Positions 3 to 16,128 of a stretch of 56,075 nucleotides of DNA are shown piece after piece (the stretch's first letter is position 1; every line of letters starts with the position of its first letter). The stretch lies in contig JAWAQK010000003.1 in NCBI GenBank assembly GCA_038893995.1, positions 24,710 through 80,784 on the forward strand, given 5' to 3'. The stretch comes from Candidatus Thorarchaeota archaeon. GTDB taxonomy: Archaea; Asgardarchaeota; Thorarchaeia; Thorarchaeales; Thorarchaeaceae. The translations under genes were made by a program, and so were the position numbers. Below the pieces are notes generated by a model. That model saw only the letters and a program-made list of their open reading frames with translations. It was not told where the DNA came from and ran no database searches.

Positions 3-971
3 CGTTGGTGGTACGGGCTGATCCTTCGGAGTCTGGGCTACGAGATCTGTAAGGATCCCAGAAAATGCAACGAAGAGAGTCCTTGCAAGAGGTGCGAGAT
101 CTTTGGCAATACTGGACATTCAAGGCAATTCAGCCTATTAGTCTTGGACAGCACCGGACTTCCATTTTGCGAAAGAACACTGAAACTGAAGAAAAGGAAA
201 CAAGGTTATCAAAATGCAACGGGAATTCAATCAGGACAACAAGGACAGAGCACAGGGAAGTCGCACGGCTGGCATCTACCGCCAGGACGTCACGGAAGAC
301 TGACCCTGAAACTCAGGGGACCGAAGGAGGTGGTTGGCCAACTCTTGCATCTACTGTTCTTCCTTGAGAGATACGGCACACTCGGTGCAAAACCGCAACT
401 GGGTTATGGTAGGTTCAAGATTCTCAACCGCTCTGAGCTGCTACTAAAGGTCACGAAAATCGATCCATCTCAAAATCAGAAACAACCATCGGGGATGAGT
501 CTGATCCAATCGGCGTTCTTCACCGTCGAGTTCAGTGAGTCCCCTTTCACACAGTTGCTGAAGAATATCGTCAGTTCGAAACTAACTCTGGAAAGACTCA
601 AGGAGCAAAACCTCGCCCCAATCTCACCAATGGTCAAAGACTACTTGAGGTTCATTGTGGGAGCCAAGTGGAGTACGCAGGAGGAACTGGATATCCTTGG
701 TGGGCAAGACGGAAACAGAAATAGATACCGGTCCAAGATTTCGGCATCGTGGGCTTACAGAACAGAGGGCAAGTGGAGGATAGATGTCTTTGCTGGACCA
801 TGTGCACAACAGACTGGAATTGGATGGAATAGTGCTCTTCAGGTCCTCCGTTCTAAGAACGGATGGCAAGATATCCTGGGCCTCGCGAATCCACCGTCGT
901 CTGTTCAAGAACACAGTGTGAATTCAAGAAACGACTTACAGACCATGCTTGAGGAGGTCATTAAGAAGTGA
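3..971 (+). CDS. cmr1: CRISPR type III-C RAMP Cmr1 (Cas7 group), 5'-truncated by window edge
   Basis: Frame 3 is open from position 3 (RWWYGLILRSLG..C..C..C..CEIFGNTG): the Cmr1 RWWY motif plus Cys cluster. Gly-rich loop GTLGAKPQLGYG. First gene of a cmr operon; the ORF-track start at 144 is internal. Confidence 0.85.
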   Translation, partial: RWWYGLILRSLGYEICKDPRKCNEESPCKRCEIFGNTGHSRQFSLLVLDSTGLPFCERTLKLKKRKQGYQNATGIQSGQQGQSTGKSHGWHLPPGRHGRLTLKLRGPKEVVGQLLHLLFFLERYGTLGAKPQLGYGRFKILNRSELLLKVTKIDPSQNQKQPSGMSLIQSAFFTVEFSESPFTQLLKNIVSSKLTLERLKEQNLAPISPMVKDYLRFIVGAKWSTQEELDILGGQDGNRNRYRSKISASWAYRTEGKWRIDVFAGPCAQQTGIGWNSALQVLRSKNGWQDILGLANPPSSVQEHSVNSRNDLQTMLEEVIKK

Positions 972-2134
972 CTGGTATGTCTGCACGGGGGGACGCGAAA
1001 GAGACTTCGTCATGTGAGATTCTCCCCTCGCTCCCCCTCAGACTGGAATTCGCGAACCAGGCACAAGATGACATTGATCAGGCCCTGAGAGGGAACTGCG
1101 CGGGATACACAATCTCAGACTGGTATGCCAGGGTATGTCTCCTCGTTCAGACCATTGGGAAAGAATCGAGAACCCGTCAGAACCGCACCGTAGACACAAG
1201 GGGGCTTGCCATTCTTAGTCGTGAGGAGGGAAAGCTCGGCCTGGCCCAGTTCTATGCCAGTGATGATGTTTCCAATAATCTGCACGAGTTGCAGAAGATG
1301 GTCCGTGCGCTCGGTCTGGACTCCCCGATCGTATCTGTGGACAAGTGTCCGAGAGGTAGCTTCCTTGTCAGACTGAATTTCACTCTAGAGAAGCCGTACA
1401 TCAGCAAGGATGATGTTGAATTCTACGTGGTCGACAACCCTGTACGAAAGGAGTGGGTATTCAAGGTTCCCTACATATCGGGAAGTCAGTGGAAAGGCGC
1501 ACTGCGTCATTCAGTCGTCAGATCCTTAGTTGAGAGCAGAAACAGCATCTCGAATGATGATGTCGTCAGACGGAGGCTTGCTATCACTCGCATCTTTGGT
1601 ACGGAGAAGGGAACTCCTGATGATGGCTCAGAATGCGAAACATATCTTGATGAGATCTTCAAGGACACTCGGGACGAGTATTGGAAGCGCTTGCGGGAAC
1701 TGCTTCATCTGAACAGTGACGAGATCCCCCACGTTGCAGGGCGCGTACATCTATTTCCGACCTATTTCTCCAGGATCAGTCTGGAAGTCATCAACCCACA
1801 CAATGAAGAGGGGGGCGGCACCCAGCCCATCTACTTTGAAACAGTTCCATCGGGGGCCTCTGGTACCTTCTGTCTACTGTACGTCCCCCTGACGACGTGC
1901 TGGGGATCAGAAGAGAAAGACGTGAAATTGGACAGGGAAATGGTCCTGAGAGGAATCAAGGACATGATGACAGTCTACGGGTTCGGGGCAAAGACATCAC
2001 TCGGGTATGGACGGGCAAATCAACTTGTTCGCGGTGGCAAGGTCTACTGGAGGACTGGAGAGCGTGAATCCGACACAAGAGATGTTTCGTTCGATGATCT
2101 GACTAAGATGGAGGTGGGGGATTGTGAGTGTTGA
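968..2134 (+). CDS. cmr6: CRISPR type III-C RAMP Cmr6 (Cas7 group)
   Basis: PYISKDD..FY..DNPVRKEWVFKVPYISGSQWKGALR, EVINPH, PIYFETVP and C-terminal YGFGAKTSLGYG loop. Overlaps cmr1 by 4 nt. Confidence 0.85.
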   Translation: MTGMSARGDAKETSSCEILPSLPLRLEFANQAQDDIDQALRGNCAGYTISDWYARVCLLVQTIGKESRTRQNRTVDTRGLAILSREEGKLGLAQFYASDDVSNNLHELQKMVRALGLDSPIVSVDKCPRGSFLVRLNFTLEKPYISKDDVEFYVVDNPVRKEWVFKVPYISGSQWKGALRHSVVRSLVESRNSISNDDVVRRRLAITRIFGTEKGTPDDGSECETYLDEIFKDTRDEYWKRLRELLHLNSDEIPHVAGRVHLFPTYFSRISLEVINPHNEEGGGTQPIYFETVPSGASGTFCLLYVPLTTCWGSEEKDVKLDREMVLRGIKDMMTVYGFGAKTSLGYGRANQLVRGGKVYWRTGERESDTRDVSFDDLTKMEVGDCEC

Positions 2135-5009
2135 TGATACACCTCTCTGTTCAAGAGGGGCCAAACTCTTAGAGATCCCAGTCTGGTTACATCTGCTTGG
2201 AAAATTCACATCAGAGTTCTACTCATGTCCATCTGCCGCCAGGGAAATTCCAGACGGACTTGACAAGGAGGTAGATCTGGACAGAAACTACGATACAGTG
2301 CTAGGACTTCAAGCACCGGCCAACCTCACTATCAGGTCCGCAATTACACAACATCACAAACAAAGCAGCAAGATTCAGAGTGTGTTGGACCTTCTCTCGG
2401 ACAGTCACGGACGCTCATCAGGAACCGACAAGGGATGGATGTTTCAAGAGGGAGGGCTGTTCGAAGGATCGGGAAAACAGGAAAATGAGTATTACAGAGC
2501 GTCACCATTTGGCTACGAATCACAGGAATCAAAAATTGATCTTGCAGATATCGACCCGAGGCGAAAACGACTCTACAAGTGCCTTGGCAAGATCCTAAGA
2601 CAACCCTGTACGCGAGAGTCTGTGCGCAAACTGGAAGAGGTCCTTTGCTGTGGATACGAGGGGATGCTCAGTGAAACCCGTCGCCCGATGAACGATGTGA
2701 CGCTGTCTGATGCGACGGAATCAGCGGTTGCTTTTTTCAGAGCTGCGTTGACTGACTACCAGTTCTGCAGATCGTGCAAAAAGCCAAAATGGAGGATGTG
2801 TCGTCTTAGCATTGACACCCTGGAATACATCTCCATCGCATCTGGCATTCCTGAGCTGAGGGGGAAACTGAAAGCAGTCGAGGACATTCTGGATGCGGCC
2901 AAGAACCTCATTGAGTATGAGATGTCCATCGGGCACGAGATCTATCGAGATGAGGGTGGATCGACCTACCTGCTTCCGGTCTTTCCTGAACCGGTTTGGC
3001 ATTGTGTGAAGAAGAAACTTGAGTCTGAAATCAGAGCTATTCTCGGACAAATACTGAATCATGACTTTCCTACAGTACTCGAGGAGTCCAAAGGGGGGCC
3101 AGACAGGAATCTTACAGGATTCCAAGAACTCGTCACCAGGCCAGCCATTTCACTGACCCCAGACTTGCACTCTGTCGATGCTGCTTGGAAGGATATGAAG
3201 ACACCAGTCGGACTCTGCGTGATGTGCGGGTGGAATCCTGTGGAGAGAGGTACACGATCCTACTTGTGTTCCTGCTGTAATGGGCAACGGGAGCCACGAG
3301 CAGCCCAGTGGTTAGAATCCTTGGGATCCACGATCTGGATAGATGAGGTATCTGACGAACACGGTCAAGTTGCGCTACTTTGTGGTTGTTTTGAGCTTGA
3401 CGACTGGCTGAGCGGACACTTGGTCCGAACTATCATGAGCTGGCATGACGAGGATCTTGATCTTAAGAGAGTAAATCAGGCCTTGGCCGAGTGGAAGAAG
3501 GGAAGCAAATCTCAGATGAAAGGAATCATACCCAAATTTGTGACCGAGAATTTCAGTTTTGGTGATGCTCTGAAGTTTCTGTACGGTGATAAGACGGTCA
3601 AGACTGACGAGGTCAAGACGATGGCTTGGCTACTCCTGTCTCAACAGGACTCTCCCGCACGAATAATGCGACTGTGGAGAACAACCCGTGATTTCTGGGA
3701 TTCAAGCTTGGCATCAATTGTAAAAGAAACCGAAGTGAAGAGACGACTCCGAATGACCCCGGAGGACCCTCTAAACATGCCGTGCGGGGCATATGAGCTC
3801 GTACAGGATCGAATCACTTTGCCGGTCTACTGGGATGACCATCGTGGACATTTCATATCGATATTCAGTCTGGAGTTTATTGAAAGACACTACGGAGTGG
3901 GAAACATCATCTCGTTCTTGCAGGGGAACAATTCTGAATTTGAGATTGTAGAAGCTGGAGGCTACGGAGAACCATCTCGCTCCATACGAAGGACGAAGAT
4001 CGCTGAAGTCAAGGAATTGGACTGCAAGTATTCAGCAACCGTGGAAGTGATAACTTCACCCAGAACATTCATGATCTTTGTTCCAGCAAGTAGGGCGCTG
4101 GAACTAACTAGAATGATCAAGGAGAAGTATGAGATTGAGATGGGCTTCGTCAGAAACAGGCTGCCCATCCATCTGGGAGTACTCGTGGGGGATAAGCGGA
4201 CGCCAGTACGTGTCTTTCTAGATGCGGGAAGGAGGATGCTCAGACAGCAATTACCTCAGGATGGCTGGAGAGTAGAGGAGGTCACCGAGTGTCTTGAGTT
4301 GCCAGGTCACCTGAAGCGTAGTCAACAGTATACGAAGGCAGTAAGCATCACTCTGGAAAAAGACGAGCAGAGGCTCCGCTGGATTGTTCCATTGATGATG
4401 GGAGATGGCAAGACCCAGGACGAGTGGTATGGGTATTGCATAGTCACCAAGCCGTCCGGAAATACGGAGAGCAGGAAGAAATACCTGGAGATACCGGATC
4501 CAAGAAACGAGAGCCAGTTGGTCCATCTCTGTCATGTCAGCGAGCTAGCCGTGGGAGATGTTGTATGTTTCATGCCATCCACATTCGACTTCGAATTCGT
4601 TGGGGGTGGGCCCACGAGATACGAGATCTGCTACGCTGATGATGGAACAAGAACGACTACGAAACGACGACCCTATCTTCTCGAGGACCTCGGGATGATG
4701 CTGGCAAAGTGGGAAGAGCTGAAGAGGCACCTGTCAATGACTCAGATACATCAAGTCATCGAGTTGATAGAGGGGAAACGGACTGAATGGGGCATTGTCG
4801 ATCCGCCTGATCCTGTATTCATAGACTTCTGCAGAAGTGTCTTGGAGTCTGCAGAATGGAAGAGTGTGGACAACAGATACCCCTGGAGCGAGACCTCGCG
4901 AGAGGAGTGGTTTACAGAAACAGCCAGGCTGGCTGCAAGAGGAGTGCTAGCAGATATCGTGAATCTGCATATCAGAATCTTAAGATTGGACAAAGGAGGA
5001 GAAGAGTAA
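2124..5009 (+). CDS. cas10: Type III-C Cas10 (Csx11-like large subunit)
   Basis: 961 aa. N-terminal WLHLLGK (HD-like), ETRRPMNDVTLSD, EIYRDE, CxxC..CxxC Zn finger, WIDEVSD, SPARIMRLW, YEIEMGFVRNRLP, PSTFDFEF, RRPYLLE. No GGDD. Sits between cmr6 and cmr4. Confidence 0.85.
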   Translation: MSVDDTPLCSRGAKLLEIPVWLHLLGKFTSEFYSCPSAAREIPDGLDKEVDLDRNYDTVLGLQAPANLTIRSAITQHHKQSSKIQSVLDLLSDSHGRSSGTDKGWMFQEGGLFEGSGKQENEYYRASPFGYESQESKIDLADIDPRRKRLYKCLGKILRQPCTRESVRKLEEVLCCGYEGMLSETRRPMNDVTLSDATESAVAFFRAALTDYQFCRSCKKPKWRMCRLSIDTLEYISIASGIPELRGKLKAVEDILDAAKNLIEYEMSIGHEIYRDEGGSTYLLPVFPEPVWHCVKKKLESEIRAILGQILNHDFPTVLEESKGGPDRNLTGFQELVTRPAISLTPDLHSVDAAWKDMKTPVGLCVMCGWNPVERGTRSYLCSCCNGQREPRAAQWLESLGSTIWIDEVSDEHGQVALLCGCFELDDWLSGHLVRTIMSWHDEDLDLKRVNQALAEWKKGSKSQMKGIIPKFVTENFSFGDALKFLYGDKTVKTDEVKTMAWLLLSQQDSPARIMRLWRTTRDFWDSSLASIVKETEVKRRLRMTPEDPLNMPCGAYELVQDRITLPVYWDDHRGHFISIFSLEFIERHYGVGNIISFLQGNNSEFEIVEAGGYGEPSRSIRRTKIAEVKELDCKYSATVEVITSPRTFMIFVPASRALELTRMIKEKYEIEMGFVRNRLPIHLGVLVGDKRTPVRVFLDAGRRMLRQQLPQDGWRVEEVTECLELPGHLKRSQQYTKAVSITLEKDEQRLRWIVPLMMGDGKTQDEWYGYCIVTKPSGNTESRKKYLEIPDPRNESQLVHLCHVSELAVGDVVCFMPSTFDFEFVGGGPTRYEICYADDGTRTTTKRRPYLLEDLGMMLAKWEELKRHLSMTQIHQVIELIEGKRTEWGIVDPPDPVFIDFCRSVLESAEWKSVDNRYPWSETSREEWFTETARLAARGVLADIVNLHIRILRLDKGGEE

Positions 5010-5902
5010 TGAAACGTGATCCCGGACTACACCATTACCTCATTCAGACCCTAGATCCTGTGCACATAGGAACTGGGGAGATGAGAATAGGTGGCATAGA
5101 CAATACGATCGTGAGAGAGACTGGAACTAACCTGCCCAAGATCCCGGGTAGTAGCCTGAAGGGCGTGATCCGGAGCTACGCCGCCTTTCAGCAACAGAAG
5201 CCTGATTGCGCGGGAGTAGACATCAAGGGGAAGCCGCACTGTAATAAAGAGGACTGTATCATCTGCTATACCTTTGGCAGCAAGGAACGCGGTGGGGTTG
5301 TCGGCATAGGGGATGCTCGGATCTTGTTGTTCCCGGTCCATAGCATGAAGGGGCCAATATGGATTACAAGCCCGATGATGTTGTTCGATTCTCCCCTGCG
5401 TGTTCCTTACGTGAGTATTCCGAACGATACCGCAAGAAGGATCCAGTTCAAGGATAGAGAGAAGGCACCAGACACAGAAACCAGGGATGGTCGAATTAAC
5501 CTGAGCTGGTTGATGCTGAAGCTCGATTCCGAGCCCCTTGTTCTGGATAGGGAGATTCAGACTCACGACCACATCTTGGACCGCGTATACCTCGTTTCAG
5601 ATGCGACTCTGAGTCAGGCTGTGAACAGCAATCTCGAGGTCCGTACATCTGTGAGCATCGATCCGAGGAGCGGTACCGCGGAAGATAAGGCTCTGTTCAC
5701 CTACGAGGCAATCCCCCGGGCCTGTATTCTCTGGTGTGATGTGGTCATCGACGAGATCATCGAGGATGGGGACAAATCCCGCGAGCCGAAGGAGATCATC
5801 AACAAGGCTATCGAATGGCTGGAAACGCTCGGCATAGGCGGGATGGGTAGCAGAGGATTCGGAAGAATCAAGATGACTGAATGGAGTGTGAAACAGGCAT
5901 GA
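5009..5902 (+). CDS. cmr4: CRISPR type III RAMP Cmr4 (target RNA-cleaving Cas7)
   Basis: DPVHIGTG..IDNTIVRE..TNLPKIPGSSLKG, ARILLFPV, RTSVSIDP..GTAED.ALFTYEAIP, GIGGMGSRGFG. ATG at 5009 overlaps the cas10 TAA; the ORF-track start at 4856 is too early. Confidence 0.92.
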   Translation: MKRDPGLHHYLIQTLDPVHIGTGEMRIGGIDNTIVRETGTNLPKIPGSSLKGVIRSYAAFQQQKPDCAGVDIKGKPHCNKEDCIICYTFGSKERGGVVGIGDARILLFPVHSMKGPIWITSPMMLFDSPLRVPYVSIPNDTARRIQFKDREKAPDTETRDGRINLSWLMLKLDSEPLVLDREIQTHDHILDRVYLVSDATLSQAVNSNLEVRTSVSIDPRSGTAEDKALFTYEAIPRACILWCDVVIDEIIEDGDKSREPKEIINKAIEWLETLGIGGMGSRGFGRIKMTEWSVKQA

Positions 5903-6315
5903 TGCAGAACCTGGACTATGCTGCAGCCAAGGCGGCCCAAGACTGTGTCGCCCAGGGCATAGACTACAAGAGCCTTGAACGCGTTGCAACAAAAGCTATT
6001 GGAGTGCTGCAGAGTCAGGGAATCTATGCGCTCTTTCTATTCCTAGGGAGCAGGGGTTTTGAAGAAAAGAAGTCAGCCGAGAGAATCAGCCAACAACTTG
6101 TGAGTCTAGGGGAACAGGTAATTGGCACGGATGTAGGAAAAGACAGACAAATGGGCAGTCAAACGTCCGACAAGACACAGCCCGGAGACAAGGCCACGAG
6201 GATCGCAATGCAACTGGTCGCAAATCGAGAAAGACAGATGCTTGCCTATGACGTCTTTGAGAGGACCCTCACATACATCAGATTCTCTGCTAAGGCGAAG
6301 GAGGAGAAGTCTTGA
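5899..6315 (+). CDS. cmr5: CRISPR type III small subunit Cmr5 (Cas11)
   Basis: Small helical protein with NLDYAAA, KAIGVLQSQGIYALFLFL and ERTLTYIRFSAKA. ATGA overlap with the cmr4 stop. Confidence 0.82.
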   Translation: MMQNLDYAAAKAAQDCVAQGIDYKSLERVATKAIGVLQSQGIYALFLFLGSRGFEEKKSAERISQQLVSLGEQVIGTDVGKDRQMGSQTSDKTQPGDKATRIAMQLVANRERQMLAYDVFERTLTYIRFSAKAKEEKS

Positions 6316-7151
6316 GCTGGAATCAATATCGATTCATGTTCAGATTACTCTCAGACATACATGTTGGCTATCGAAGAACGGGAAACTTGATGCAGTCTAG
6401 GTGCTACGTTCATGGACGAGCAATCAGAGGGGCCCTTGTAAACGCATTGGCAAGTAGTCTGTGCAGCGACGAGCCAGACCCCTATGAAACGGCCTCTGAA
6501 GTTGTCAGGAACATTCGATTCACGTACTTCTGGCCCGCATATTGCAGAGAGACATCACCGGATGGGTGGAACTCTCTCAGCACTGCGTTTCCCTTTCCAG
6601 TATCAGATGGGTTACGCAAGTTATATCCAAATCCAATAAAAATCAGAAAAGAGGCCCTTGAATATCTGTTCATGCATTCAGAGCAGCGGACCTCAGTGGG
6701 TGTCAGTTCCCGCACTGCTGAAGAGGGGGTGTTATTCGAGGTAGAATCCATCTCGAGTCACACAAGAGAGGGCAAGCAGGTCTATCTCGTTGGAACACTC
6801 TGGATATCAGACTCTGATGGGCGGTTGGGGAACCCGACTGAGTCGTTCTCGAATCTGTTACTGGGAGGAGAGAGGACGTACGGTTGGGGAAGGGGTCTGC
6901 TCAGATTGGAACCCGCTGGCTCAGACCGGTGTGATCCAACATCACTCAGATTCTCAGGCCATGTCCCAGCACATCTGATCCCCAAAGAATCCAGACCGGA
7001 TCCTACTGCAAAGGTCGAGGCACTCGCAGGTTGGGAAACAATGAGGGGAAAGACCAGGCTGACAAGTGTTGCTGCCTATGAACCAGGATACTGGCTCGAT
7101 TCAGAGAGCATCGTCGAGATTGACGAGAGTGGGATCTGGAGGCAGACCTAG
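6312..7151 (+). CDS. cmr3: CRISPR type III-C RAMP Cmr3 (Cas5 group)
   Basis: FRLLSDIHVG, YVHGRAIRGAL, RTAEEGVLFEVE, LGGERTYGWG. Last gene of the cmr1-6-10-4-5-3 order typical of III-C. Confidence 0.8.
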   Translation: MSWNQYRFMFRLLSDIHVGYRRTGNLMQSRCYVHGRAIRGALVNALASSLCSDEPDPYETASEVVRNIRFTYFWPAYCRETSPDGWNSLSTAFPFPVSDGLRKLYPNPIKIRKEALEYLFMHSEQRTSVGVSSRTAEEGVLFEVESISSHTREGKQVYLVGTLWISDSDGRLGNPTESFSNLLLGGERTYGWGRGLLRLEPAGSDRCDPTSLRFSGHVPAHLIPKESRPDPTAKVEALAGWETMRGKTRLTSVAAYEPGYWLDSESIVEIDESGIWRQT

Positions 7152-10916: not shown

Positions 10917-13089
10917 CTACTGAGCCGTGCCGGATGAGATGTACCCCACCAAGAGTCCATCTGAGGAGAGGTATGCATAGAAGTCCCCTCTGCTCGACAA
11001 ACGAAGAGGCCCTATTGCGACGTTCTGGAGGAGACTGCTGAGAGTGAATCCATTCTCCTCGGTCGCAGCGTAGTAAGTCATTGTCCTACGGGCATAGTCG
11101 TACTGAGCAACGACCACTGTTGTCCCGTCCGTCGAGAGAATGGGGTACGAGTAGCGGAGAGTTGTGGTCTGAGTAAGTGATGCAATCTTGGTTGTCTTGC
11201 CGCTCAGGACATCGTAGATCATCACGTCTTGAACGCAGGTGGTATCTCTTCCAAGAATGTACAGGACTCTGTCTCGGCCGCCCCACATTCCATAGAACAC
11301 CGCACCCGAGTCTATCTCCTTGACTGAAGCTCCCTCAAGACTCATGATCCGCACGGTGGAGGACCGACTCACAAGGTAGCATGCACTGGGGGACAGCACA
11401 CTGCCCTCGAATACGGATGCTGATGTCTGCGAAACAACCTGGGTGGCGGACACGACTGGAACAAATGGGCTACCATCGAGGGGCACCTCGACCATTCCCT
11501 CCCAGATCGTCGACCCGTCGCTGGAGTAGAACGCACCCCACACATATAGGTTAGATTCATCGACGGAACCCTGAGCACCGAATCTGAAACCGGCCATTCC
11601 GTGTGTGTTCTCATAGAGTCTTTGTGGTGCCATCCGTGAAGTCGACCTGTAGGATCTTGGAGCCACAGTCAGCGATGACTATGGCACCATACTTGTCAGG
11701 CACGAGAAACACATTCGTCACATCACAGACTGGCAGCGGGATTCGGCGGACCGAGCCAGTACTCACGCTATCGGAGTTCAGGACAATGAGTTCTCTGTGC
11801 CGACCCTCACTATGAAGGGCCGCAGTCCTGGTTCTCTGGAGCAGTACGACAGAACCCTCGTCGGTCACACAGACCAGTTGTGCGCCGTCAATTCCCATTG
11901 AAACGAGTGTCTGATGAGCCAGACTGAAGCCAGATAGGCCAGTGCCTGGTCCTGCACCAAGAGCCGGTGCTGCATAGGCACTGAGTGTAGGAATCTGGGG
12001 ATTGATTGCATCGGATCTGCGGAGGACGCGGATCGAATTCGGGTACCAGTCCCATACACTGTGGACCATGTTGTTCATGATCATGGTCGACCTATAGGAC
12101 TTGTGACCAAGTGAGATGCTAGTTACTCCGAGAGAGGACGCTGATGACACCTCGGACGGACTTGTGACTGCATTCTGGTCGGCGTCTCGCCATACATAGA
12201 GACCATCGAGTTCCTGACCCTCTATCACTCCATTACTGTCAAGGTCCCTGCTTCGAAGTTTCTCATATCCGTCGGGCCATCCATCGGAGTCGCCAAAGAG
12301 GTTCTTACCTGACAATGAGGTGTCCTGCATCGGCAGTACGTTGATCAACAGCCCATCGTTTGGACCAACCCACTCCATGATGTCCCGCAGGCCATCGCCA
12401 TCAATATCAAACATCTTGATATTGGAAGACCAGATATCAGGATGAGGTAACCATTGTCCGTTGGATGCCTGAAGGATTCCATCACCATCGAGATCGAGGA
12501 CAATGGGTGGAACGGAGTTGAAGCTGCTTATCAGGTAAGACTCTTCAGTATCCTGACTCAGCCCGTACCTTAAGCTGGCACCCTCCAACACACCAAGCTC
12601 TCTCCCCGGACGGTTATAGTTATAGAGCCCGAGGTCTATCCTGGTCCCTGCGCTGGACAGACTGACTCCCTGCGACGATAGAGAGGGGAACAGCGAGGAC
12701 TGAATGTCAACTCCGATGTGATTGACTGTGTCGTGCAAGACCTCAGTAAACAGATTCTCGGCCGCATGAGGGTTGGACAGCAGGAAGCGAGCAACCTCAT
12801 AGACTACCCCGCGGTCCAGTCCTGCCAAAGCTCTGGCATGCTGGGGGAGCGAGTAGTTGAACAGTAGGGCGACTAGGAGTCCTTCGCGTGCTATCTGCAT
12901 GTCACTCCCACCAAATAGGGCGCTGATATCCCATTCAACTGGACCGGGATTCATGAAAACGACAAGCCCTGCTGAAACAACAACTGCCACCACAATTCCT
13001 ACGGCTAGGCAATGATGCCTAACGTGCATCCTGCTTCTGTACGAATACCTTGAGAAAAAGGTTTCCCAGACTCTGCTCGTCAACGACAA
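10917..13089 (-). pseudogene. Frameshifted membrane-anchored secreted protein: N-terminal TM, FrpC SPM-like Ca-binding domain, beta-propeller-like C-terminus (ORFs 11611-13089 and 10917-11666)
   Basis: Upstream ORF ends ...FTDGTTKTL* and the +1 frame continues LYENTHGMAGFRFG with the same beta-rich composition. Contains PIVLDLDGDG, FDIDGDG, WVGPNDGLL, LFGD, DLDSNGVIEG and VWRDADQN. Confidence 0.7.
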
Positions 13090-13372: not shown

Positions 13373-14911
13373 ATGGCTGATTCAGTTGCAGTATTCTGGG
13401 ACATTGAGAACTGTCCGCCACCCCGGGGAATGAGTGGCATGATGATTGAGAAGCAACTCCGCGAATCACTCAGTATCTTCGGGCCCATCCGACAGATTCA
13501 CGCTTATGCGGAGCTCGCGAAGTTTCCAACGAACCTCAGGACTGAGCTTCAGCGCTCTGGCATTCACCTCATAGATACGCCTCACGGTTCATCAGGCAAG
13601 GACGCAGCCGACAAGATGATCATCACTGACATGTTCATTCTGGCAATGGATAGTCAGAAGGAACTCACGTATGTTCTGATTGCGGGCGATATTGACTACT
13701 CATACCCACTTGCGAAACTGAAGCAGAGAAGACACCAGGTTGTCTTGGTTGTACCGCCTGTGGGGGCCAACCCAATTCTGAAGGAGCGGGCTGACAAGAT
13801 CCTCGAGTGGACTGCAATAATGGCTGTCAGAAATGCTACAGCACAGGATGAATCGCTACGGTTTGAAACACTACTCTCTGCGCTGGGGGAACTGAGTCAG
13901 AAGGGTCAGACACTGCCATCGCTCACCGAGTTGGAGTCATACCTGGACGCTAAGTATCCAACGTGGAGAGAGACCTCGGGATACAAGAGTATCAAGCAGT
14001 ATGTGAGCGATGCAGAGGAGGGCGGTTGGGTAGGTACAACAATGCAGGAGAAGGAGATCCGCGTCTTCATAGTGGAGGACGAGGAAGAAGAGAAAGAGGA
14101 TGTCGAGAAGAGTGTTGAGGAGGACCGGTTCGGTCCACTGGTCACAGTACTTGAGGAGGCAAGGATGGAGGGAAAGAACGAGGTCGAACTCGCGAACCTT
14201 GGTATCAAGCTCAGGAGTCTTCTCATTGACCCTCTGGAGAGGCTAGGAGTAAAGAAGCTAAAGGACTACGTCCTCGAGGCAGAGAAACAAGGCGTAGTAA
14301 AGGTCCGACAGGATGGACTGCAATACTACGTATCGCTGGCAGGACCTGAGCAACATGGACCCTCTGGGCGCGACGAGGTAGACGCGATCCTGGACCTGAT
14401 GGAGAAGGCATTGAATGAACTGAGGGCAGAGGAGATAATGCCGACGGCAAGAACACTCATTGGCAGGATGAGAGAGCTGGTACCAGGGTGGAACCTGTAC
14501 GATTCTGCTGTCGGTGATATCCCTGCACTGCTGAAGGCCGCGAAAGAACGCAGAGAGATGACAGTGGAGAGATACGGGAATCAGTACCTCGTGTTTCCAA
14601 AATCGGGACGCTTCAAGTATCACGACCCCAACGATGACAGTGATCCATTCTCAACCGATCAGTGGAAGGTGCTCGCAAGGTACCTCGTCGAGAACAGGAC
14701 CATCACGGCGAGGGGCAGATACGGGTTTGCAAAGAGGCTGAAGAACTCGGTACCAGGGATCAGCAAGATGAGTATGGGTGCACTGATCCACATGGTTCAG
14801 CTGGCAGTCAAGCGGGGATGGCTTGAGTTTCGTGGTACGACAGTCGGTGTACACCCCATGCTGGACCGACAGGTACCGGAAGAAGAACTCAGTCCTGAAT
14901 CTCCGAAGTAG
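13373..14911 (+). CDS. NYN-domain (LabA/limkain-type) ribonuclease with three OST-HTH/LOTUS-like domains and a C-terminal OHA-like domain
   Basis: VFWDIENCP, GKDAADKMIITDM, LIAGDIDYS (acidic PIN-like site). LOTUS-like repeats GYKSIKQYV, LGVKKLKDYV, VGDIPALL. C-terminal DP..QW..GRYGFAKRLK..MSMGALIHMVQLAVKRGWL. Start moved to ATG 13373. Confidence 0.85.
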   Translation: MADSVAVFWDIENCPPPRGMSGMMIEKQLRESLSIFGPIRQIHAYAELAKFPTNLRTELQRSGIHLIDTPHGSSGKDAADKMIITDMFILAMDSQKELTYVLIAGDIDYSYPLAKLKQRRHQVVLVVPPVGANPILKERADKILEWTAIMAVRNATAQDESLRFETLLSALGELSQKGQTLPSLTELESYLDAKYPTWRETSGYKSIKQYVSDAEEGGWVGTTMQEKEIRVFIVEDEEEEKEDVEKSVEEDRFGPLVTVLEEARMEGKNEVELANLGIKLRSLLIDPLERLGVKKLKDYVLEAEKQGVVKVRQDGLQYYVSLAGPEQHGPSGRDEVDAILDLMEKALNELRAEEIMPTARTLIGRMRELVPGWNLYDSAVGDIPALLKAAKERREMTVERYGNQYLVFPKSGRFKYHDPNDDSDPFSTDQWKVLARYLVENRTITARGRYGFAKRLKNSVPGISKMSMGALIHMVQLAVKRGWLEFRGTTVGVHPMLDRQVPEEELSPESPK

Positions 14912-15189: not shown

Positions 15190-16128
15190 GTGAGGTCAGT
15201 GGCCACACGAAACGCAAGGTACTACATCATGATGCTGGTCACCACGTTTCTCTGGGGTGGCTCGTGGGTCTCGGGCGACCTGATTGTCGAACTGGCACCA
15301 CCGATGGCGATCGGATTCTTGCGGTTTATGGTGGCACTGATCCCATTTCTGGTCCTACTACGAGTCTATCAACACGGCCTACGCAGGATCCTCGCAAGAG
15401 AACACCTGCCAGTCGTGCTCGCCACAGCGATCACAGGGATACTGGGATACGGAGTTTTCTTCCTCATCGGAATGCACTACACTACGTCCGCCCAGGGCTC
15501 CATCATCGCAGGCCTAAACCCCACCACGATCACGATCTTCTCCTACATCATCAACCGAGAGAGACTCGAGAGAAGATGGCAGTACCTGGGACTGCTGCTC
15601 AGTTTCATCGGGGTGGTATTCGTGATTGGAGTGCAGGCTCTGTTCGAATTCAGACTCGACTATCTGGTGGGCAACCTACTCATAGTGTTGGCGATGGTAA
15701 ACTGGGGGATGTACTCAGCACTCGGAAAGCGTGCGATGAGAAGCCTGTCTTCAGCAGAAATGACGACAGGTAGCATCCTCTTCGGGACGTTGATGTTCGG
15801 TGTTGCTTCAGTAAACGACTGGAACGATACAGTGTTTCTCTACAGTGGCGAATTCTGGTTCCATATCTTCTTTCTGGGAATACTTGTCACATTTGTGGGG
15901 TACATACTGTTCTTCGAGTCCGTGAAGAACCTGGGAGGCACCCGGACAGGAGTGTTCATCAATCTGGTCCCGGTCTTCGGAGTACTCCTGTCAGTGATGA
16001 TACTCGGGGAGGAGCTACCCTGGACCTTCGTCACAGGTCTGATCCTCATACTGGCAGGCATAAGTGTGATAAACGCCCCAGTGAGCCGGGGTGGGCCAGA
16101 GGCTCTCGCTGGACAGAAGACATCATGA
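15190..16128 (+). CDS. DMT superfamily (EamA) transporter
   Basis: About 10 TM, two EamA repeats, LWGGSW, FLRF, NLVPVFGVLLS..ILGE. Confidence 0.9.
   Translation: MRSVATRNARYYIMMLVTTFLWGGSWVSGDLIVELAPPMAIGFLRFMVALIPFLVLLRVYQHGLRRILAREHLPVVLATAITGILGYGVFFLIGMHYTTSAQGSIIAGLNPTTITIFSYIINRERLERRWQYLGLLLSFIGVVFVIGVQALFEFRLDYLVGNLLIVLAMVNWGMYSALGKRAMRSLSSAEMTTGSILFGTLMFGVASVNDWNDTVFLYSGEFWFHIFFLGILVTFVGYILFFESVKNLGGTRTGVFINLVPVFGVLLSVMILGEELPWTFVTGLILILAGISVINAPVSRGGPEALAGQKTS

What the first reader, a model, noticed from the sequence alone, without database searches (positions are those of the whole stretch)
13373..14911. Eukaryote-like NYN-LOTUS x3-OHA ribonuclease (MARF1/limkain-like architecture)
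Seen in sequence: the NYN domain has the eukaryote-style FWDIENCP and GKDAADK signatures rather than the common prokaryotic LabA-type F(I/V)DGxN. Three ~75-aa wHTH/LOTUS-like repeats follow, then a C-terminal DP..W..GRY..AK.LK..S(M/L)G...H.VQLA domain resembling OHA (OST-HTH-associated). Established: NYN plus multiple LOTUS is the MARF1 layout (mRNA decay, transposon silencing); to my knowledge OHA is described from eukaryotic proteins. Inference: a candidate eukaryotic signature protein for RNA surveillance, ~6 kb from an RNA-targeting Cas operon.
Basis: partly seen in the sequence, partly recalled or inferred. Interest (0 to 1): 0.72.

Follow-up and report, generated by a model that had tools for sequence, protein, structure and literature searches.

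The report
Asgard RNase of a eukaryotic family
An Asgard archaeon encodes a probable RNA-cutting enzyme whose catalytic domain and tail are otherwise found, in these searches, only in eukaryotes (protists, fungi, plants); it is a good candidate for an RNA-decay protein that predates eukaryotes, and its closeness to a CRISPR operon here looks like chance.

Summary
Confirmed. Window 13373-14911 (+) encodes a 512-aa protein of a Thorarchaeote: an NYN RNase domain (Pfam 78 bits; best structural match MARF1 NYN, Z 22.5), three winged helices and an OHA domain (34 bits, over cut-off). Acidic residues sit at all four MARF1 catalytic positions. In three trees the NYN domain joins eukaryotic NYN proteins (100/99 or better), apart from LabA and from a commoner bacterial-type NYN-2xLOTUS family that Asgards also carry. 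The family was found in only 6 of 400 Asgard genomes, yet spans several Asgard lineages. Corrections: it is not a MARF1 orthologue (no RRM, about 26% NYN identity). Its closest architectures are NYN-LOTUS-wHTH-OHA proteins of Chromosphaera and amoebozoa, and plant MNU1/2. Repeats 1-2 are divergent LOTUS domains (Pfam misses them); repeat 3 pairs with OHA. No CRISPR link: no Cas hit in 18 other loci. Inheritance from Asgards versus transfer from an early eukaryote is unresolved (AU p 0.19 and 0.21). I found no paper reporting it in Asgards; this scan noted the family before on other genomes (e1-925225, e1-5455596).

The parts
13373..14911 (+). Gene for the 512-aa NYN-LOTUS-LOTUS-wHTH-OHA protein (P0001); flanked by a divergent gene upstream and a 278-bp gap downstream, so probably transcribed alone (inference)
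   Evidence: GC 52.9% and GC3 0.61, typical of the genome (53.6%, median 0.61)
13379..13822 (+). NYN (PIN-fold) RNase domain of the eukaryotic NYN.1/limkain type; acidic pocket D10, E47, D80, D106 (plus N13, D108)
   Evidence: Pfam; alignment to MARF1 NYN; Foldseek TM 0.88 to 5yaa/6fdl against 0.70 to 2qip; VIA Z 22.5, rmsd 1.8 A over 149 residues; residues
13850..14080 (+). Winged helix 1, divergent LOTUS/OST-HTH (G-Y-K-S-I fits the Ghxph motif)
14120..14347 (+). Winged helix 2, divergent LOTUS/OST-HTH (G-V-K-K-L); the best conserved repeat, shared with Chromosphaera and with bacterial-type NYN-2xLOTUS proteins
14366..14608 (+). Winged helix 3 (DUF7602/DUF7625-like); found together with OHA in all full-length Asgard members and in the eukaryotic OHA-bearing hits aligned here
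14609..14863 (+). OHA (OST-HTH-associated) domain, net basic (14 K+R against 7 D+E)
   Evidence: Pfam PF14418 over cut-off; Atlas structure matches TM 0.67-0.76 to eukaryotic OHA clusters; charge

Best explanation
A stand-alone, metal-dependent (Mg2+/Mn2+) single-strand RNA endonuclease. The NYN pocket cuts; the two LOTUS-type winged helices and the wHTH-OHA tail select structured RNA or dock on a ribonucleoprotein partner, so the enzyme acts in mRNA decay or RNA end-processing as DNE1, MARF1 and MNU1/2 do. It is the Asgard branch of the eukaryotic NYN.1 family with the OHA tail, old within Asgards but accessory (often lost, probably also exchanged between lineages). Shown: domains, fold, conserved acidic residues, clade membership, distribution, lack of Cas linkage. 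Inferred: catalysis (about 0.85), RNA binding by the repeats (about 0.7), role in RNA turnover rather than defence (about 0.6), inheritance by eukaryotes from an Asgard ancestor (about 0.5).
For: D10/E47/D80/D106 align with mouse MARF1 D178/D215/D246/D272, each required for cleavage (alignment; PMC6217404); the first, third and fourth are invariant or nearly so in 16 Asgard homologues and the second is mostly E/D. MARF1 needs its LOTUS repeats for cleavage. Asgard plus eukaryote clade 100/99, 100/99 and 100/100 in three trees. NYN identity of the Asgard family: median 46% to opisthokonts, 36-38% to amoebozoa and plants, 25% to the bacterial-type family, 21% to LabA. The wHTH-OHA tail aligns over its whole length with Chromosphaera, Clastostelium, Phalansterium, Planoprotostelium and Welwitschia proteins. 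Full-length homologues with a source name are all Asgard: Thor-, Hermod-, Heimdall-, Hod-, Odinarchaeota by NCBI label. Contigs are archaeal, so not contamination. Without long branches, eukaryotes are one clade (97/90) with Asgards outside it.
Against: No activity data; no RNA run holding the gene was listed. Found in only 6 of 400 Asgard genomes and in none of the two largest other families searched (149 genomes). With all sequences the Asgard clade nests among eukaryotes next to opisthokonts (98/82), and that topology is not rejected in the trimmed set (p-AU 0.21). LOTUS identity is indirect: no Pfam hit, and solved LOTUS domains tie with generic winged helices (Z 7.4-8.5). Repeat 1 is net acidic. 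Arabidopsis MNU catalysis itself is unproven (PMC9181182).
Confidence: 0.6

Rival explanations
1. Same biochemistry, opposite history: an early eukaryote (opisthokont-like) gave the gene to an Asgard lineage and it then spread sideways among Asgards.
For: Nesting with fungi and Chromosphaera in the full tree; Asgard-opisthokont identity (46%) exceeds opisthokont-amoebozoa (36%) and opisthokont-plant (40%); found in 1.5% of Asgard genomes; Thor-Thor identity (42-48%) equals Thor-Hermod (45-48%) while SecY gives 71-77% against 52-53%, so the gene does not track the species tree at that level.
Against: Eukaryote monophyly not rejected in the full set (p-AU 0.19) and recovered at 97/90 without long branches, 66/83 with LOTUS added; deep divergence inside Asgards (NYN 41-92%, median 53); compact two-repeat layout like that of prokaryotic NYN-2xLOTUS genes; short Heimdall/Hodarchaeales forms without the tail branch near the base.
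Confidence: 0.3
2. A stand-alone anti-virus or anti-mobile-element RNase (abortive-infection type), with the winged-helix tail as sensor.
For: Patchy spread, variable neighbourhoods, a broken paralogue in G397, an integrase near one homologue and a TnsA-like gene beside another; MARF1 silences retrotransposons.
Against: No PADLOC model matches; annotated neighbours are mostly housekeeping (SHMT, uvrABC, MutS, ABC transporters); only distant 25% matches in viral contigs; genome-typical GC3.
Confidence: 0.25
3. An ancillary nuclease of the nearby type III-C CRISPR system (crRNA trimming, like Bacteroides fragilis NYN).
For: 6.2 kb from cmr1-cmr6-cas10c-cmr4-cmr5-cmr3; a CRISPR-associated NYN is known (bioRxiv 10.1101/2024.04.08.588522); 3 of 6 carrier genomes have RAMP genes against 85 of 400 overall (small, non-independent sample).
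Against: Three opposite-strand genes lie between; none of 18 other loci (275 kb, some redundant) hits the six Cas proteins and 8 Pfam-annotated loci show no Cas domain; no RAMP match in G352, G111, G397; the listed G313 RAMP hits lie about 645 kb away or on another contig; no CARF/SAVED sensor; this Cas10 has no GGDD.
Confidence: 0.05
4. An ordinary prokaryotic LabA/DUF88 + OST-HTH protein, or a eukaryotic contaminant.
For: NYN-LOTUS fusions are common in bacteria (PMC2848206) and in Asgards; the Atlas feature search ranks bacterial NYN clusters first for the NYN domain (0.90).
Against: Long, fully supported branch away from all 32 prokaryotic outgroup rows; OHA present; best plasmid-borne bacterial match 30% identity, 49 bits; Atlas structure search of the same domain returns only eukaryotic clusters, TM 0.90-0.92; intron-less gene on an 80.8-kb archaeal contig with homologues in many independent Asgard assemblies.
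Confidence: 0.03

Closest known systems
Arabidopsis MNU1/MNU2 (NYN + two LOTUS + OHA + putative WW; mitochondrial 5' RNA maturation; PMC9181182)
   Same: Same domain set and order by the published description (NYN, two LOTUS, OHA); a plant NYN-DUF7625-OHA protein (Welwitschia) aligns over the tail.
   Different: No WW domain or targeting presequence; the review lists MNU only in seed plants; the MNU sequences themselves were not in my trees.
Uncharacterised protist NYN-LOTUS-wHTH-OHA proteins (Chromosphaera perkinsii P0027; amoebozoa Clastostelium P0035, Phalansterium P0054, Planoprotostelium P0165)
   Same: Closest relatives by sequence in every domain; Chromosphaera 47% in NYN and homologous LOTUS and tail.
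   Different: Longer, with linkers, usually one detectable LOTUS; some amoebozoan forms add a glycogen-binding domain or duplicate the tail.
Mammalian MARF1/limkain-b1 (PMC6217404, PMC6294520) and Arabidopsis DNE1 (bioRxiv 10.1101/2021.10.01.462782)
   Same: Same NYN subfamily and fold (Z 22.5), same catalytic positions, LOTUS repeats behind the nuclease.
   Different: MARF1 has two RRMs, eight LOTUS and a decapping-complex-binding tail and no OHA; about 26% NYN identity; DNE1 is described as NYN plus two OST-HTH only. No XRN-type partner was found in carrier genomes, but that search had no positive control.
Prokaryotic LK-nuclease (DUF88/NYN.COG1432) + OST-HTH proteins (PMC2848206, PMC5499597), including the second Asgard family seen here
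   Same: NYN followed by two LOTUS repeats; WDxEN motif.
   Different: Separate clade, 25% NYN identity, no Cys-x-Pro after the motif, no wHTH-OHA tail.
Plasmodium Md1 (LOTUS + OHA; PMC9750867)
   Same: LOTUS-OHA C-terminus; localises to RNP granule-like foci.
   Different: Described with no NYN domain; sex-determining N-terminal extension.

Membership tests
NYN domain RNases (PF01936) | PIN-like fold and Pfam score over cut-off | tested here: met
   78.2 bits against 24.2; Z 22.5 to 5yaa
NYN domain RNases (PF01936) | Acidic catalytic tetrad | tested here: met
   D10, E47, D80, D106 at MARF1 D178, D215, D246, D272; the second is Glu rather than Asp
NYN domain RNases (PF01936) | Metal-dependent RNA cleavage | not testable with these tools
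   needs an assay
Eukaryotic NYN.1 / limkain-b1 subfamily (Matelska 2017, PMC5499597) | Branches with eukaryotic NYN.1 proteins, apart from LabA/COG1432 | tested here: met
   100/99, 100/99, 100/100
MARF1 orthologues | Two RRM domains between NYN and LOTUS | tested here: not met
   no RRM by Pfam or in the model; only about 10 residues separate NYN from repeat 1
MARF1 orthologues | Eight LOTUS repeats and a decapping-binding tail; sister to animal MARF1 | tested here: not met
   three winged helices plus OHA; MARF1 rows group elsewhere in the clade
LOTUS/OST-HTH (PF12872) | Pfam OST-HTH score over cut-off | tested here: not met
   no hit in P0001 or in 20 homologues over repeats 1-2
LOTUS/OST-HTH (PF12872) | Winged helix with Ghxph insert motif and profile link to known LOTUS | tested here: met
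   GYKSI and GVKKL in repeats 1-2; HHalign of repeat 2 to Pfam-positive LOTUS, probability 75, E 2.7e-5; an iterated repeat-2 profile scores Pfam-positive LOTUS stretches at 41-44 bits; repeat 3 weaker (probability 37, motif unclear)
LOTUS/OST-HTH (PF12872) | Structure closer to solved LOTUS domains than to other winged helices | tested here: inconclusive
   TDRD5, Tejas, MARF1, TDRD7, Oskar, NE0665 at Z 7.4-8.5, tied with generic wHTH; Foldseek ranks Egalitarian first at E 5e-3
OHA domain (PF14418) | Pfam score over cut-off | tested here: met
   34-37 bits against 26.1; all six carrier genomes over cut-off
Plant MNU1/2 | NYN + two LOTUS + OHA | tested here: met
   architecture from PMC9181182
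Plant MNU1/2 | WW domain and mitochondrial targeting | tested here: not met
   NYN starts at residue 3 and no WW hit
Plant MNU1/2 | Orthology by tree | not tested
   MNU1/2 sequences were not retrieved
CRISPR-associated NYN (type III ancillary) | Conserved linkage to type III cas operons | tested here: not met
   0 of 18 other loci; no RAMP match in 3 of 6 carrier genomes
Eukaryotic signature protein of Asgard origin | Asgard sequences sister or basal to a eukaryote clade | tested here: inconclusive
   met, not; neither topology rejected
Eukaryotic signature protein of Asgard origin | Absent from other prokaryotes | tested here: inconclusive
   no non-Asgard prokaryote among named hits, but many hits are unnamed and an earlier scan note reports the tail on a Thermoplasmata nuclease, which I could not check

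The most novel reading that the evidence does not exclude
The NYN-LOTUS-wHTH-OHA ribonuclease was assembled in Asgard archaea from a prokaryotic NYN-2xLOTUS gene and inherited by the first eukaryotes, giving rise to MARF1, DNE1, MNU1/2, the fungal NYN proteins and the LOTUS-OHA module of Plasmodium Md1. This would replace the proposed bacterial entry route and give a small, soluble model for the uncharacterised OHA domain.
Probability: 0.45. Interest if true: 0.72.

Novelty: new member of a known kind. Interest (0 to 1): 0.56.

Why it matters
NYN.1 was classed as eukaryote-specific (PMC5499597) and MARF1-type proteins were proposed to come from bacteria (PMC6217404). An Asgard clade that shares both the nuclease subtype and the OHA tail with several eukaryotic supergroups puts a piece of eukaryotic mRNA-decay and germ-granule machinery in the archaeal relatives of eukaryotes, or else records a rare eukaryote-to-archaeon transfer. 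Either way the compact 512-aa protein is a practical route to the structure and function of OHA, which has no solved relative in the searches run here.

Tried and rejected
Literature: no paper with Asgard + LOTUS + NYN, Asgard + MARF1, Asgard + OST-HTH, or Asgard + ESP + NYN; no mention in the main text of bioRxiv 10.1101/2024.07.03.601958 or PMC13700489; the supplements of PMC12962969 are not held, so a listing in a large ESP table cannot be excluded. Expression: no RNA holder listed. A conserved NYN-EamA-radical SAM-GTPase module was suggested by locus L046 and rejected: the radical SAM and GTPase are not the best matches, and the EamA is a core Thorarchaeote gene (70 of 86 genomes) that is not adjacent in other carriers. 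EF-2 as a species marker was confounded by paralogues; SecY was used instead. Piwi found in only 1 of 5 genomes tested and not in this one; the XRN search had no positive control. PADLOC, NCBIfam: no match. One tree label is wrong: the row named G352_P0292 is another Thorarchaeote; the G352 copy is P0010. No complex prediction was run, as no partner is proposed.

Full report
Observation. Pfam gives NYN at aa 5-144 (78.2 bits) and OHA at aa 442-484 (34 bits), both over cut-off, and nothing between. The AlphaFold2 model (pLDDT 81.8) fills the gap with three winged helices and models OHA as a further wHTH-like domain. Repeats 1 and 2 are homologous (HHalign 99%); repeat 3 is distant from both and gives weak DUF7602/DUF7625 hits. 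GC and GC3 are typical of the genome.

Host. The genome is a Thorarchaeote: a genome of the same family, G352, carries the 73,748-base contig that titles Candidatus Thorarchaeota, and the best named homologue is Thorarchaeotal.

Nuclease domain. The best structural matches are mouse and human MARF1 NYN (Foldseek TM 0.88-0.89 against 0.70 for the Vibrio LabA-type 2qip; VIA Z 22.5 against 17.1). D10, E47, D80 and D106 align with mouse D178, D215, D246 and D272, each needed for ssRNA cleavage (PMC6217404). D10, D80 and D106 are invariant or nearly so across Asgard homologues. Activity is therefore likely but inferred.

Repeats. Pfam OST-HTH hits none of 20 homologues, so the LOTUS call is indirect. 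Repeats 1 and 2 carry the Ghxph motif of PMC2848206 (GYKSI, GVKKL). Repeat 2 matches a profile of Pfam-positive LOTUS domains at probability 75, and its iterated profile finds both repeats of bacterial-type NYN-LOTUS proteins, including Pfam-positive stretches. Solved LOTUS domains appear at Z 7.4-8.5 but tie with generic winged helices. Repeat 3 and OHA form one module: it aligns end to end with proteins of Chromosphaera, Clastostelium, Phalansterium, Planoprotostelium and Welwitschia, and its nearest Atlas structures are eukaryotic OHA clusters (TM 0.67-0.76).

Distribution. Full-length homologues (35-54% identity) with names are all Asgard: Thor-, Hermod-, Heimdall-, Hod- and Odinarchaeota by NCBI label. 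Only 6 of 400 Asgard genomes carry the family, and these are the only six with OHA over cut-off; many of the 400 are incomplete. Short forms without the tail occur in Heimdallarchaeota/Hodarchaeales. The next named hits are all eukaryotic, and three unnamed ones that I checked lie on eukaryotic contigs. A second, commoner Asgard NYN-2xLOTUS family is bacterial-type, about 45% identical to Syntrophorhabdales proteins.

Phylogeny. In a 105-row NYN tree the Asgard family and all eukaryotic rows form a clade at 100/99 on a long stem, apart from LabA and the bacterial-type family. Inside it the Asgards group with opisthokonts at 98/82, but eukaryote monophyly is not rejected (p-AU 0.19). After removing 38 rows (the long branches, distant outgroups and near-duplicates), eukaryotes are monophyletic at 97/90 with Asgards outside; the transfer topology is again not rejected (p-AU 0.21). 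Adding one LOTUS repeat leaves the base unresolved (eukaryotes 66/83). Gene and species distances disagree between Thor and Hermod, which points to lateral exchange or old paralogy within Asgards. Membership of the eukaryotic subfamily is firm; the direction is not.

CRISPR. The operon at 144-7151 is type III-C; its Cas10 has no GGDD. None of 18 other loci hits those Cas proteins, three of six carrier genomes have no RAMP match, and the listed G313 RAMP hits are far from the gene. Neighbourhoods vary. The proximity looks accidental.

Comparison with known proteins. It works like MARF1 or DNE1 but is not a MARF1 orthologue: no RRM, three repeats, OHA tail, 26% NYN identity. The published architecture closest to it is Arabidopsis MNU1/2 (NYN, two LOTUS, OHA, WW; PMC9181182); that lead came from earlier scan notes and I checked it in the paper, not by tree. 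LOTUS-OHA also forms the tail of Plasmodium Md1, which localises to RNP granule-like foci (PMC9750867). NYN.1 was published as eukaryote-specific (PMC5499597).

Verdict. A real, probably unreported Asgard member of a eukaryotic RNase family and a credible candidate eukaryotic signature protein. It is rare, its history is unresolved, no activity is shown, and this scan has noted the family on other genomes. Novelty: new member of a known kind. Interest 0.56.

Noticed in passing
window 144-7151 (+): Type III-C cmr1-cmr6-cas10c-cmr4-cmr5-cmr3 operon; the Cas10 has no GGDD motif; my simple scan found no CRISPR array on this contig, but arrays on seven other contigs.
   Followed up: partly
L013, L014, L017-L036 (other Asgard genomes): A second, commoner Asgard NYN-2xLOTUS family of bacterial type; Thorarchaeote members (about 450 aa) carry an extra unannotated C-terminal region.
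   Followed up: partly
L016:756-2087 (-), G013; weak hits also in G123 and G125: A protein with an AAA_12 helicase-type domain followed by two repeats matching the LOTUS-like profile: a possible helicase-LOTUS fusion in Asgards.
   Followed up: no
L053:5601-6800 / L006 (G397): A second, broken copy of the family (internal stops), 74-86% identical to the intact copy in the same genome.
   Followed up: partly
L046:4671-5711, L061:9660-10688: Short Asgard forms (NYN plus two repeats, no tail) that branch near the base of the family; GCA_046759345.1 has both a short and a long form.
   Followed up: partly
window 15190-16128 and L046:3681-4586: An EamA transporter homologue is adjacent to the NYN gene in both a Thorarchaeote and a Heimdallarchaeote, on opposite sides; not seen in 17 other loci.
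   Followed up: yes
L056 and L058: Records labelled Odinarchaeota and Hodarchaeales share the SHMT-NYN gene order and 72-74% protein identity, so one taxonomic label may be wrong.
   Followed up: no
P0319 and P0323: Oomycete (Globisporangium) NYN groups with fungal proteins in all three trees: possible fungus-to-oomycete transfer or contamination.
   Followed up: no
window 10917-13089 (-): Two ORFs (249 and 492 aa) divergent from the NYN gene with no significant Pfam, NCBIfam or PADLOC match and no hit in the other loci.
   Followed up: no
P0020, P0021: Unnamed 668-713-aa metagenomic proteins made of five or more repeats matching the LOTUS-like profiles, without NYN or any Pfam hit.
   Followed up: no
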